From positions 106,939,731 through 107,003,730 of the forward strand of contig NC_092378.1 in the NCBI RefSeq assembly GCF_030028105.1: a stretch of DNA of 64,000 nt. Reading direction: 5' to 3'. The notes below the pieces were generated by a model that ran no database searches, was not told the DNA's origin, and was given only the letters and a program-made list of their open reading frames with translations. A program made the position numbers and the translations under genes. The stretch is from Mobula birostris. Its lineage: Eukaryota. Below, piece after piece: positions 33,132 through 37,923 of this stretch (its first letter is position 1; every line of letters starts with the position of its first letter).

Positions 33132-33168
33132 CTAGGAGCAAAAACACAGAACTCATTCTAAATGCATA

Positions 33169-36100
33169 TGTAAGGCTATAGACAAACCCTGCTCCTCAGT
33201 GTCTAGGGAAACCCCGCAACCAGCCAACCACGTAAGCCAGTTTATGTGGAGGCTGCATAAATGCCCAATTCACAGGTCAGACAGAACATCATAAGCGGTT
33301 CAATACGTATACTTTATAAATCTTGCCGTGAATATCGGTTAACAAAGAATACACTCTAAAAGAATAAAATGAAAGGCGCCAAAGTTCAAATGGAGTTTTA
33401 AAAGTCAGTGCACCTAAGGCTTTGTTGGAGCTCAATATCCCGCAGAACCTCAACCCTCCGTCCTTGGCCTCCGACGACCCGCACGGGACCACACCTCGGG
33501 TGGTCAACCAGAGCGCCTCTGATTGCGACCTTCCTCCGTCTTCTCCACCCGATAAACCCGCCAAACCACATGGTCCCCAGCCATATGAGACAGAATATCA
33601 CCCACAAAAAGAATAACATAGACACCCATTGGTTCGTTCTCCCCCTTATCAATAATATAACCCAAACAAGCAGGGGAGAGAGAGAACTCCTTACATCGCA
33701 GTTATTATTACAGAAAAGCCATTTTATATAACATACAAAGAAGCCATTTTAGACATCTCAGCAGCCATTGTAACCAAGACCCAGTTACACTCTGCCCCCA
33801 CCAAATAAAGTCATGTCCTCATGACATTAAAGGAGTTCACCAATCCTCCTTGCAAAACACATAACCCAACCCAGGTGCATAAAGCAGTGACATAACTTCC
33901 CAGGGCGGTAGAGATCACACCTTGTTCTCCCCGTGCTACATAGGTCAACCTCTCCGGGGGGGGTTCCTACTTCTCTGAGACCTCTGTACCTCCTCTGGTG
34001 ACCCTTCCGGCTCAGACACCACTGGAGATATCTCCGGTCTGCTTGCCAAATCCTCTCTGAGTCTCTTACTCATGCCCCCACTGCAACCTGGAGCCTCCTG
34101 TCCTGTGTCTAGACACCCCTGTCTCTCCTTCAGGCTCCTGCAGTAACCCAGGCTGCCCACAGCTAGCCCCCCCCAGCCCCACCTCACCTGCCTCAGTGGG
34201 CCAGGAGTCTCTTCATCAGCAAGGGGAAGTTAGTGAAAAGCAGCATGCAACACACCTTCATCTCATCATCCTTTGAATCCACATTCTTCTCCCTTTCCTT
34301 GATTTGTAGCTGCTGTTTGGTTTTCTCCAAACTGGAGCACTTGGCCTGAGCTGCCCCTGCAGCCTCTTCAGCCTCCTGCAAATCGAGGCGTCAGCTTCTT
34401 CACTAACTCCTCTGCTTCCAGCCGCAGTAGTTCAGACTCACGCTGTGTGTTCATCTCTATCTGGGACGCAGTTACACCACCAGCTTCTTCCAAGCTGTTC
34501 TGGATCAATTTCTCCAGTTTCTGCTGATCCTTTCGAAGGTTGGTCATTGTTTCATCTCTCTGGATTACTTCACCAGTAAATGACTGCAGTTTCAGCTCGG
34601 AATTCAGTTTCCCCGTCTTCACTTTGACAAGCGTAGACTCCAATTCTTCAATCTTTGTCCCAAAATTGCAGCACTCAGTCTCCAGCCTGCATCCCTGAGC
34701 GTTCAGTTCAGCGGTGCAAATTTCCTCTCTCAGCAGAACAGTCACGAGCTGCGTCCTTCTCCAGACTTGGCACTCATCCAAATAAAGTTTTACTTCGTTA
34801 ACCCCTAGTCGCCTGGGATCCCTCACTCGCCTTGCTTCATAGTCGTCCAAGGCGAATCCCACAGAGACACACCAGCACTTATTTAAACAGGGCAAACATG
34901 CAGCATCCTACAAAAATCCATATTCCGGACGAGCCCCCAGAATGTAAAGCTATAGACAAACCCTGCTCATCAGTGTCTAGGGAAACCTTGCAACCAGCTA
35001 ACTACGTAAGCCAGTTTATGTGGAGGCTGCGTAAACGCCCAGTTCACAGATCAGACAGAACACCATAAGCGGTTAAATACGTACACTTTATAAATGTTAC
35101 TGCGAATATCGGTTAACAAAGAATACACTCTAAAAGAATAAAACAAATGTAACTGGATCTTGGATACACTGGCTGCTGAGGTGTCTAAAATGGCTTCTTT
35201 GTATGTTATATAAAATGGCTTTTCTGTAATAATATCTGTGATGTAAGGAGTCCTCTCTCTCCCTGCTTGTTTGGGTTATATTATTGATAAGGGAAGGAAC
35301 GATCCAATGAGTGTCCATGTTATTCTTTTTGTGGGTGATATTCTGTCTCATATGGCTGGGGACTGTGTAGTTTGGAGGGTTTTTCGGGCAGAGAAGACGG
35401 AAGAAGGTCGCATTCAGTGGCGCTCTGGTCGACCACCTGAGGAGTGGTCCCGGGCAGGTCGTCGGAGGCCGAGGACGGAAGGTCGAAGTTCTGCGGGATA
35501 TTGAGCTCCAACGAAACCTTAAGTGCACTGACTTTTAAAACTCTATTCGAACTTTGGCGCCTTTCTTTGTGTAAGGAGTTTCTTCTTTCATGTTACTTGC
35601 TGACGCTAATAAAATGGTTTCTCTGTAGTGTTGTAATAAAATGGCTTCTCTGTAATTTTAACTGATGTGGTAATGTTCTCTGTAGCAGCATGTTTGGGTT
35701 ATAATTAGTGATAATGGGACGTATTCGTTTGCTAACCAACTGGGATAGATGTTATTCTTTCTTGTGTATGTGAAAGCTGTTGTTCACGCGGGATTTGAGG
35801 GAAAAGGCGCGAGGAGGATGAAGAGAGAAGAGGTGGCTTGAGGAGACGGTTGCCGGACCCGCTAGGCCTGGGCTTGGGGCAGGACCCCAGGGGCCAACTA
35901 GCGGAGGAGGATCAGCGAAAGGGCATCAGTGGGCTCCAACGTTTGTGCACTGGACATGTTTATGAGATTATTGGCGCCTTTTATTTGTTTTCCTTTTCTT
36001 TTGTTTCTCTACTAACCCCATACTTAGATATAAAATCTTAATCGTTTAACCACACATTGTGGACTGAATGTTATTTTGGGGTACTGAGGTTAAACAGGGG

Positions 36101-36198
36101 ACACAACTCGCAGCATCCACCCAAACAAGAGTGCTAAAGTATGGCCAGGGAGGGGCCCCACCCCCGCGATCATGCCACTAGATGCAATGAGTCTTACA
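33169..36198 (-). mobile_element. Gypsy-type LTR composite: non-autonomous element A (minus) joined to solo LTR B (plus)
   Basis: LTR 33169-33789 (TG..CA), PPT 33790-33803, tRNA-Pro PBS 34922-34939 (TGGGGGCTCGTCCGGAAT). Second LTR split into 34943-35143 (direct) and 35148-35565 (inverted). LTR B 35570-36198 (TGTAAG..CTTACA). CATA flanks both outer ends. Confidence 0.88.
34255..34740 (-). pseudogene. Captured myosin heavy chain tail fragments inside LTR element
   Basis: IEELESTLVKV, LEEAGGVTASQIEMNTQRESELLRL and LQEAEEAAGAAQAKCSSLEKTKQQLQ match sarcomeric myosin II rod motifs; frameshift near 34380. Confidence 0.8.
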
Positions 36199-36374
36199 CA
36201 TACATATCTGCCAGTCATATTCAACGCAACCACCTTGTACAAAGTCAAAAGTGCACGTGCTTGAAGTTAATGTAGTAATTATCAATTACTTTACAGTTTG
36301 CTAATTCTTTATATAAATGACCACACGGTATTGACTTCTTAAAAAATTTTATTTAGTGATAACAGTTTGGAGTA

Positions 36375-37923
36375 CAGGTTTCCCCTGCCATCCGAAGGTA
36401 AAGCGTTCCTATGAAACAGTTCGTAAGCCGAAATGTCATAAAGCGAAGAAACAATTACCATTTACTTATATGGGAAAATTTTGTGAGCATTCGCAGACCC
36501 AAAAATAACCTACCAAATCATGCCAAATAACACATAAAACTTAAAAATAACGGTAACATATAGTAACAGCTGGAACGATATGATAAATACACAGCCTATA
36601 TAAAATAGGAATACTTCTCTACAATCATTGCTGCACTGGTCTCCGTAGCGAAAATCTCACGCAAGCACTCTTGGCAGAAACACTCTCTCCAGTAACCTTT
36701 AAGCTATGAAGCTGCCAATTCATACCAAATAACACATAAAAATACACAGCCTATATAAAGTAGAAATATGTATGTACAGTGTATTATCACTTACCGAAAT
36801 TGGGAAGACAGCGCCAAGCACACTGATAATGGTGTTAGGCTGAGTCGTTGGAGGTTGGGGTGGTGAAGTGGCCCCCAACCTCCGGACCGCCGACCGATAC
36901 CGATCCGCGAAGAATGCAGCGGTCGTCGGAACGCACCCAGCACATCTTTAAGAAAAAAGCCGAAATAAACAAGCAAATTAATTAGGTGCCACCCGGCACG
37001 TAAATGTCGGCCCAGATCAGAGGAGACACAATTGGCAATCGCCTCTGATCTAGGTCGACATTTACGTGTCGGGTGGCACCTAATTAATTAGCTTGTTTAA
37101 TTTTGGGTTTTTTTCTTAGATGTGCTGGGTGCCTACCGGCTACCGCTGCATTCTCCACAGCCCAGGGGTTGGGTTGCTTTGTTTCCATCAGGGCTGGCAG
37201 GTCATCTTCTTCTATGTCTGCCTGCCTCAATGTTGAAGGTCGAGGTTCGTCGTCTGCTGTGGCCGATGTGGAAGGCTTGCTTGACTGCTTAGCCTTACAC
37301 ATTTTTCTATCATACAGTTCTTTGTAAGCACTCAAACCATCTTGCAAATATGCCCTAAACCGACATACCCTTTCAAAATTAAAGTCGTACTTTATCATTG
37401 CAGCGAAAATCTCACGCAGTTGCTTCACGTTCAGTTCCTGGGCGTCTTCACTTTTGGTCCGTTTGCTACTGCATTCGATTTCGATTGTTATCCTTTCCTC
37501 TTCCAATTGCATCAGCTCTTCATCTACCAGTTCTTGGTCAAGGGATGCCAAAACCTCTTCAACATCATCTTCCTCACCTTCCACATGCCAAACTCACTTT
37601 GTCCTTACTTTGTTCACCACGATCGAAATGCTTAATTATGTCTAGTTTTACACTAACACCCAACGAGCTCTTTTAGGCTTTTCCAATACCTTAGAAGTCA
37701 CCTTGCTAACGGCTGCTCACGGGCACGTGTTTAAGCAATGCCGGCTAGAATGCAGTTCCGGGGGAGGAGCTCGGCTGCTCGGGGCGCACGCTGCCTTTTA
37801 GCGCGCGCTGCTTTTTTCGTAACAGTGAAAACACCTTCTGTTAGCGAATTCTGTTAACTAATGTAGGTCTTTCATAACAGTGAGGTTTCGTAAATCAAAC
37901 GTTCGAAAAGCGGGGGACACCTG
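36375..37923 (-). mobile_element. Tigger/pogo DNA transposon, internally deleted
   Basis: TA-flanked imperfect TIRs caggtttcccctg / cgggggacacctg; acidic transposase C-terminal relic (ORF 37084-37584). Confidence 0.82.

What the first reader, a model, noticed from the sequence alone, without database searches (positions are those of the whole stretch)
34193..34895. Non-autonomous Gypsy element carrying a mosaic of myosin heavy chain coding sequence
Seen: the 1.15 kb internal region between PBS and PPT has no recognisable RT or integrase core. It encodes coiled-coil peptides TKIEELESTLVKVKTGK..FTGEVIQRDETMTNLRKDQQKLEKL, LEEAGGVTASQIEMNTQRESELLRL and LQEAEEAAGAAQAKCSSLEKTKQQLQ, mostly in one 175-codon frame that starts just after the PBS. 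Established: these match non-adjacent parts of the sarcomeric myosin II rod (LEEAGGATSAQIEMN; RLQEAEE..AKCSSLEKTK). Inference: host mRNA was transduced with several internal deletions or template switches. From memory some residues look MYH16-like. If multi-copy, this is a mobile family spreading a mini-myosin coiled coil, and it lies in the sense orientation of the FAM234A intron.
Basis: partly seen in the sequence, partly recalled or inferred. Interest (0 to 1): 0.72.

Follow-up and report, generated by a model that had tools for sequence, protein, structure and literature searches.

The report
Ray retrotransposon carrying headless-myosin fragments
This is one dead, rearranged copy of a large family of crippled jumping genes in rays whose integrase was replaced by an intron-free piece of an unusual muscle-myosin gene that likely lacks a motor, and the spreading lineages likely had to keep that piece readable, although its protein sequence drifts.

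Summary
The myosin patches are real. They match, at 83-90% DNA identity and without introns, an intact second MYH16-clade gene of the same genome (G000:C28, 17.90-18.23 Mb), not canonical MYH16. Spliced contigs show its first exon has an in-frame stop before the ATG, so it likely encodes a rod without a motor. The family (at least 150 verified copies; 1,073-1,345 unverified candidates; relatives in Mobula and Hypanus) is a Ty3/Gypsy element whose integrase was replaced by the rod at an 11/12-nt microhomology, then shortened by nested deletions. Nine of nine shared cargo deletions are in frame (homology-aware p 0.002-0.013). Shared changes avoid stops (0/136 vs 27/439 in singletons, only in this frame; weaker under stricter filters), but no clear amino-acid constraint was found. 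So the frame likely mattered, not a mini-myosin. The window copy is a unique dead recombinant: LTRs from an integrase-bearing sister family, and an inverted 5' LTR joined to a family LTR by integrase-type 4-bp duplications. The scan noted this family before on other DNA (22 notes). Known mechanism, unusual variant.

The parts
33165..33168 (+). outer target-site duplication (CATA), left copy
   Evidence: same 4 bases at 36199-36202
33169..33789 (-). 3' LTR, type A (621 bp, TG...CA); LTR of the integrase-bearing sister family
   Evidence: 86-92% to 27 of 28 other A-type LTR loci over nearly full length
33790..33805 (-). polypurine-tract-like stretch before the 3' LTR
   Evidence: sequence
33790..34043 (-). 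3' untranslated region taken from the A-type family (crossover about 34040-34100)
   Evidence: 85-99% to L196/L199/L218 against 63-80% to myosin-family copies
34044..34288 (-). Gypsy pol tail (linker that follows integrase in the parent)
   Evidence: 76-85% to integrase-bearing relatives L172-L181
34289..34412 (-). myosin patch 3, donor CDS 1630-1752 (RLQEAEE...KTKQ exon); one-base insertion at about 34382
34419..34496 (-). myosin patch 2, donor CDS 916-993 (LEEAGG...), spans a spliced exon junction at 34461
34497..34736 (-). myosin patch 1, donor CDS 247-486, spans a spliced exon junction at 34605; includes the exon that one present-day donor contig skips
34737..34861 (-). reverse-transcriptase remnant (region after the catalytic DD motif), fused in frame to myosin
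34855..34942 (-). PBS (34939-34922; tRNA-Pro type, assignment recalled) and leader of the myosin family; gag-like ATG at 34899 is followed by a stop at codon 7; a ~1.7-kb gag-pro-RT deletion joins at a 7-nt overlap
34943..35143 (-). 5' LTR type A, 3' part (in element orientation)
   Evidence: 91.5% to the 3' LTR
35144..35147 (+). inner 4-bp duplication, inverted copy (CAAA)
   Evidence: the other A-type LTRs carry this 4-mer (or a one-base variant) once at this place
35148..35565 (+). 5' LTR type A, 5' part, inverted; starts exactly at the LTR's first base
   Evidence: 90.8% to the 3' LTR
35566..35569 (+). inner 4-bp duplication, direct copy (TTTG)
35570..36198 (+). complete solo LTR of type B, the usual LTR of the myosin-bearing family
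   Evidence: up to 89% over the full length to myosin-family LTRs, 68-78% partial to integrase-bearing relatives L172-L180
36199..36202 (+). outer target-site duplication (CATA), right copy

Best explanation
The window holds one dead, recombined copy of an old, high-copy, integrase-less Ty3/Gypsy family of rays that carries intron-free pieces of a second MYH16-clade host gene, likely a rod without a motor, in place of its integrase; the pieces were likely captured by template switching and likely kept as open-frame filler rather than for their protein. Shown: donor gene, spliced junctions, 11/12-nt microhomology at the 5' capture point, replacement of integrase between RNase H and the pol tail, nested in-frame deletions, stop avoidance in shared changes, and the recombinant make-up of this copy. 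Inferred: reverse transcriptase switched from element RNA to co-packaged donor mRNA and back; integrase-bearing relatives then mobilised the chimera in trans; lineages that kept the pol frame open to near the 3' end were copied more, probably because translation in cis protects or packages the RNA, as reported for the IAP 1-delta-1 fusion. Inferred for this copy: an A-type helper RNA and a myosin-family RNA shared a particle and recombined, and integrase joined two left LTR ends into the A LTR itself and two right ends into the chromosome (about 60% against a nested insertion followed by an exact inversion).
For: Donor: 85-95% typical exon-wise identity against 75-84% for canonical MYH16; 22 exons join with 0 stops in 1,090 codons. 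Splicing: the longest copies run through donor CDS 151-1015, seven exon junctions; two clean junctions in the window copy. Headless: no C28 hit upstream among 74 of 74 scored motor-exon candidates; no motor exon in the 115 kb upstream; contigs of three guessed-RNA runs (two studies, two organism labels) join a first exon to the first rod exon, and two cover an in-frame stop ahead of the ATG. Capture: 5 of 30 RNase-H loci continue into myosin, 25 do not (most continue into the integrase linker); junction 11/12 identical. Gypsy: PNMA gag, protease, RT, RNase H, integrase order; RT closest to Ty3 (E 2e-30 against 5e-10 or weaker for retroviral RTs). Frame: 9 of 9 shared cargo deletions in frame against 2 of 29 small indels; RT and myosin in one frame in 55 of 65 copies; stops 0/136 shared against 27/439 singleton changes, p 0.0008, and no such effect in the other five frames; gag, protease, RT and tail pooled 1/191 against 28/526, p 0.002; GGGAAAC slippery heptamer in 18 of 25 copies where the site was matched. 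Recombinant copy.
Against: In-frame deletions are favoured by codon-periodic microhomology: the null rises to 0.5-1.0 per event and p to 0.002-0.013. Stop avoidance weakens with stricter definitions (p 0.006-0.06), and without the 14 copies picked partly for long frames p is 0.03-0.39. Shared variants are only partly lineage-coherent (0.77 in one subfamily against 0.57 by chance). No single gag, protease, RT or tail segment is significant alone, and some shared one- and two-base indels remain unresolved, including a two-base difference near the tail end in 33-39 copies. Pooled non-synonymous deficit in the cargo is significant (omega 0.65-0.68, p 0.004-0.009), which leaves some room for weak protein-level selection. 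Only 68-73 of more than 150 copies were analysed, chosen by similarity. LTR B is slightly closer to another subfamily (89%) than to the copies nearest in the cargo (87%). The donor tree is a quick one with a long donor branch.
Confidence: 0.66

Rival explanations
1. Pure passenger: same capture, but nothing selected the frame. In-frame deletions come from codon-periodic microhomology, and few source elements had too little time to gain stops.
For: Homology-aware null p only 0.002-0.013; stop test not significant in the reduced set; omega near 0.8-1.5 in most segments; all sampled copies are decayed, 40 of 68 with a stop in the cargo.
Against: Shared changes carry stops in the other five frames at the singleton rate but none in this frame; the same trend holds in gag, protease, RT and tail; four subfamily RT-myosin junctions are also in frame.
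Confidence: 0.22
2. The coiled coil worked as protein: the Gag-Pol-myosin fusion dimerised or co-assembled into helper particles and pulled in its own RNA.
For: Pooled omega 0.65-0.68 in shared changes, p 0.004-0.009; the first and last patches persist in nearly all copies; a myosin-free RNase H-to-tail deletion copy exists (L159) but was seen once.
Against: Omega 0.77-0.78 and not significant when transitions and transversions are split; subfamilies kept different pieces, down to about 370 nt of a ~990-nt capture; the window copy has no start codon before patch 1.
Confidence: 0.1
3. Generic coiled-coil likeness of a normal Gypsy protein, or an assembly artefact.
For: The window peptide has no Pfam myosin hit.
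Against: 83-90% DNA identity to one host gene across spliced junctions; many dispersed copies; named relatives in other ray species.
Confidence: 0.01

Closest known systems
LTR-mediated retrocopies of animals (Tan et al. 2016, PMC5131818; abstract and passages seen)
   Same: Part of the element's ORFs replaced by partial spliced mRNA, microsimilarity at the switch point, sense and in-frame cargo, further rounds as a non-autonomous element.
   Different: The passages seen describe young, few-locus cases (15 in fly, 3-10 per other species); here at least 150 and probably about a thousand copies, several subfamilies with nested in-frame deletions, and a signal for keeping the frame open.
Maize Bs1 and human HERV-K/FAM8A1 capture (named in the Tan et al. 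passage; originals not read)
   Same: LTR element carrying transduced host coding sequence.
   Different: Different hosts and cargo; FAM8A1 capture is described there as a single untranscribed pseudogene.
Mouse IAP 1-delta-1 (review PMC6466679, passage seen; the primary paper by Saito et al. 2008 was not held)
   Same: Non-autonomous LTR element with an in-frame deletion whose fusion ORF is reported to act in cis to help transposition.
   Different: An endogenous retrovirus with a gag-pol fusion and no host cargo; shown by experiment there, only inferred from sequence here.
Autointegration inversion circles of LTR elements (PMC7197481, passages seen)
   Same: Integrase joins LTR ends to the element's own DNA and inverts part of it.
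   Different: Those are dead-end circles from one cDNA; the window structure uses ends of two different LTR types and sits in the chromosome with its own target duplication. An inversion after nested insertion fits equally by sequence.
MYH16 masticatory myosin (review PMC6402096, passages seen)
   Same: Donor groups with the MYH16 clade (SH-aLRT 99) and its rod exons break at like places to the canonical gene where compared.
   Different: Donor lies outside jawed-vertebrate MYH16 (60-63% identity), likely has no motor, and coexists with a full-length MYH16 on C11.

Membership tests
Ty3/Gypsy LTR retrotransposon | LTRs with TG...CA ends, PBS, PPT, 4-bp target duplication | tested here: met
Ty3/Gypsy LTR retrotransposon | Domain order gag-protease-RT-RNase H-integrase in the parent | tested here: met
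   integrase-bearing relatives L172, L174
Ty3/Gypsy LTR retrotransposon | RT closer to Ty3 than to retroviral RT | tested here: met
   (similarity search, no RT tree)
Endogenous retrovirus | Retroviral-type RT and an env gene | tested here: not met
   RT E 2e-30 to Ty3 against 5e-10 or weaker to retroviruses; in L172 the integrase frame ends about 350 bases before the 3' LTR, leaving no room for env
LTR-mediated retrocopy | Host exons joined without introns inside an LTR element | tested here: met
LTR-mediated retrocopy | Microsimilarity at the switch points | tested here: met
   5' junction 11/12 nt; the 3' junction shows only loose purine-rich likeness
Non-autonomous element mobilised in trans | Lacks integrase yet has many dispersed copies with own LTRs | tested here: met
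IAP 1-delta-1-like cis-acting ORF | Open fused frame maintained in replicating lineages | tested here: inconclusive
   supported; weakened
IAP 1-delta-1-like cis-acting ORF | Translation needed in cis for transposition | not testable with these tools
   needs an experiment
Domesticated retrogene (functional mini-myosin) | Intact ORF with start codon and purifying selection at one locus | tested here: not met
   window copy lacks an ATG before codon 121 and has a frameshift; singleton omega 1.15
MYH16 orthologue (donor gene) | Groups inside jawed-vertebrate MYH16 and has a motor domain | tested here: not met
   outside that clade in a quick tree; no motor exon found

The most novel reading that the evidence does not exclude
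A vertebrate Gypsy family reached about a thousand copies on a host coiled-coil used as translatable filler, with selection on read-through alone; the cargo is a fossil of an older splice form of an undescribed, conserved motor-less MYH16 paralogue of sharks and rays; and this locus preserves a helper-passenger pair integrated together through cross-paired LTR ends.
Probability: 0.33. Interest if true: 0.72.

Novelty: new variant of a known kind. Interest (0 to 1): 0.52.

Why it matters
It shows LTR-mediated gene capture scaling up from single retrocopies to a whole family in a vertebrate, and gives a natural data set for asking whether non-autonomous LTR elements need translation in cis. It points to a conserved, probably motor-less sarcomeric myosin in elasmobranchs (93% identical fragment in whale shark) that my literature searches did not find described. 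It also explains false 'myosin heavy chain-like' gene models in ray annotations. The window copy itself is dead and ordinary in function.

Tried and rejected
Canonical MYH16 (C11), the C3 myosin and three C28 cluster myosins as donors: 70-85% in short patches, rejected. Longer captures: the donor stretch after patch 2 (183 bases) is single-copy, 1 of 1 candidate. Protein searches did not return a full-length donor protein (best 120 of 1,983 listed, at most 67% identical; weak evidence); one search gave one 119-aa orthologous fragment. Runs X9, X10 and X11 laid nothing on the donor; no proof of absence. No tRNA gene in the window. Literature: 'LTR retrotransposon + myosin heavy chain + captured + shark' 0 papers; 'stingray + genome + myosin + retrotransposon + expansion' 0; MYH16 paralogue searches gave 5 and 7 listings with no headless paralogue in what I saw (passages of two papers); IAP five-term search 0. 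Passages of PMC9661723 and PMC10924933 gave background only and do not show that rare frameshifting protects such RNA; that link is my inference. Subscription papers, Repbase and Dfam were not searchable; no supplements were read, and those of Tan et al. may list higher-copy cases. Earlier-finding look-ups by other words or by place gave nothing new. The careful donor tree did not finish. No structure or complex was predicted: a coiled-coil model would not decide anything here.

Full report
Observation. The 9 PDB sequences matched at E<=0.01 are all sarcomeric myosins. The 1,153-bp internal region lies between a PBS-like site and a purine tract, inside a 621-bp LTR pair about 91% identical. 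Pfam PF23727 exon hits on the minus strand flank it, so it is in sense in an intron of a FAM234-family gene. Two points are wrong: window 34861-34737 is an RT remnant, and the long frame has no ATG before codon 121.

Family. A DNA search gave 1,073 first-look candidates, of which 40 of 40 scored match (39 besides this copy, 85-90%); a protein search gave 1,345, 150 of 150 scored at E<=3.4e-21. Candidates are not copy numbers; 150 is the verified floor. Fuller copies are about 3-4 kb elements with a shortened PNMA-type gag, protease, truncated RT, myosin and a pol tail. Named relatives exist in Hypanus sabinus, Mobula birostris and M. hypostoma. LTR pairs of 22 copies are 83-93% identical, median 89%; none sampled is young. 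Of 30 loci found with the RNase H stretch, 5 continue into myosin and 25 do not; most of these continue into the integrase linker. Relatives show gag, protease, RT, RNase H and integrase in Gypsy order, and their RT is closest to Ty3.

Donor. Canonical MYH16 is complete on C11 but matches only in short patches at 75-84%. A tail search revealed a second MYH16-like gene on C28 that matches the cargo exon by exon, typically 85-95%. Its 22 exons join without a stop (one boundary was set 3 bases short there, the GT site is visible; one acceptor reads AT). A quick tree puts it in the MYH16 clade but outside jawed-vertebrate MYH16, on a long branch. An earlier scan note suggested it lacks a motor. 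Tested here: none of 74 scored motor-exon candidates lies upstream on C28, none in the 115 kb before the first rod exon. Contigs of guessed-RNA runs cover that exon exactly, with no intron cover (2 of 4 runs), and join it to an exon 74 kb upstream (3 of 4 runs, two studies) in which an in-frame stop precedes a 28-codon start. One contig skips the exon with the AT acceptor, which the element carries spliced.

Capture and deletions. The oldest copies join the RNase H linker to the first base of that exon at an 11/12-nt microhomology and hold donor CDS 151-1015 across seven exon junctions plus 1624/1630-1752. The stretch between is single-copy where tested. This is the template-switch structure of Tan et al. 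2016 (PMC5131818; abstract and passages). In 73 distinct loci aligned pairwise to the donor, nine deletions shared by two or more copies (9, 27, 60, 72, 105, 126, 429, 624, 837 nt) are all in frame, while 27 of 29 small indels in 68 copies are not. Coding sequence favours in-frame microhomology; with that null p is 0.002-0.013, not 5e-5. RT and myosin share a frame in 55 of 65 copies; 7 of the 10 misses fall in the older groups with longer spacers.

Selection. Five near-identical duplicates were dropped, leaving 68 copies. Without CpG-like changes, singletons make stops at the neutral rate (27 of 439; 5.8% expected) and changes shared by four or more copies make none (0 of 136; p 0.0008); with CpG changes kept, 30 of 514 against 4 of 206 (p 0.03). 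The other five frames show no difference. Gag, protease, RT and tail pooled give 28 of 526 against 1 of 191 (p 0.002), none significant alone. Against this: stricter definitions give p 0.006-0.06, and dropping 14 copies picked partly for long frames gives 0.03-0.39. Amino-acid constraint is weak: omega 0.65-0.68 pooled (p 0.004-0.009), 0.77-0.78 and not significant when split by mutation type, 0.7-1.5 elsewhere. Some shared small indels are unresolved. The wording 'frame kept, protein drifting' was also in earlier scan notes; these are not independent support, the tests above are mine.

Mechanism. Shown: capture structure, spread, in-frame bias. Inferred: helpers supplied the enzymes, and lineages whose pol frame stayed open to near the 3' end were copied more. 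A slippery heptamer at the gag end is kept in 18 of 25 matched copies, so the frame could be reached by a -1 shift (established for many Gypsy elements; recalled). A cis role of a fused ORF is reported for mouse IAP 1-delta-1 (review PMC6466679, passage; primary paper not held). Whether RNA stability or co-assembly is the cause is untested.

This copy. No other of 40 scored matches spans its leader-RT junction. Leader, RT remnant and myosin come from the myosin family (mostly 84-97% per bin to L031/L032), the last ~250 bases and both LTRs from an A-type family whose members run from integrase C-terminus to tail (85-99%). The 5' LTR is broken at a 4-mer present once in other A LTRs and here twice, once inverted; the 5' part is inverted from the LTR's first base and joined to a complete myosin-family LTR; CATA flanks the whole 33169-36198 composite. 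Integrase acting on cross-paired ends of two cDNAs gives exactly this, akin to autointegration inversions (PMC7197481, passages); so does nested insertion followed by inversion at the 5-bp inverted LTR ends. I favour the first at about 60%. The copy cannot make the myosin frame from its gag-like start, which meets a stop at codon 7 and is in another frame.

Comparison and novelty. It is a Ty3/Gypsy-derived LTR-mediated retrocopy family by every feature tested, not an endogenous retrovirus and not a domesticated gene. The mechanism is known; scale, nested in-frame deletion, stop avoidance and the headless donor make it a new variant. Searches found no paper on it or on the donor, within an open-access library only. 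The scan has 22 earlier notes on this family in other windows. Interest 0.52.

Noticed in passing
G000:C28 17,900,195-18,226,283 (L071-L110): Second MYH16-clade gene, open over 22 rod exons, with a 28-codon first exon preceded by an in-frame stop; predicted rod-only protein of about 1,040-1,120 aa; 93% identical fragment in whale shark (P0216).
   Followed up: partly
G000:C28 18,017,098-18,017,325 (L106): Donor exon whose expected splice acceptor reads AT; one contig (X15) splices past it, while the retroelement carries it spliced to the next exon, as if it preserved an older splice form.
   Followed up: partly
window 35144-36202: 5' part of the 5' LTR inverted exactly from the LTR's first base, flanked by an inverted and a direct copy of one 4-mer and joined to a complete LTR of the other type; the whole composite has one outer target duplication.
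   Followed up: yes
L159 (G000:C1 ~2.278 Mb): Relative deleted from the RNase H linker straight to the pol tail, in frame, with no myosin.
   Followed up: no
L184 (G000:C1 ~219.766 Mb): Myosin-bearing copy in which gag runs in frame into protease and RT joins myosin at another point.
   Followed up: no
L181, L185 and other copies, gag end: Translations of myosin-bearing copies seem to lack the zinc-knuckle region seen in an integrase-bearing relative, and their gag frame runs on past the parent's stop (read by eye).
   Followed up: no
P0363: A Mobula protein model named glutathione S-transferase theta-2 clusters with the element-derived protein, likely an annotation that includes element sequence.
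   Followed up: no
G000:C17 (L013, L014, L018, L019) and C6 186.6-188.3 Mb: Near-identical copies in clusters, likely segmental duplications rather than new insertions.
   Followed up: no
window 36911-37154: Inverted repeat, 116-nt arms, 84% complementary, 12 nt apart; MITE-like or hairpin, not examined.
   Followed up: no
G000:C16 85,153,947-85,154,483 (L090): Weak, stop-containing, unspliced-looking match to the myosin tail (29%); not recovered at the threshold.
   Followed up: partly
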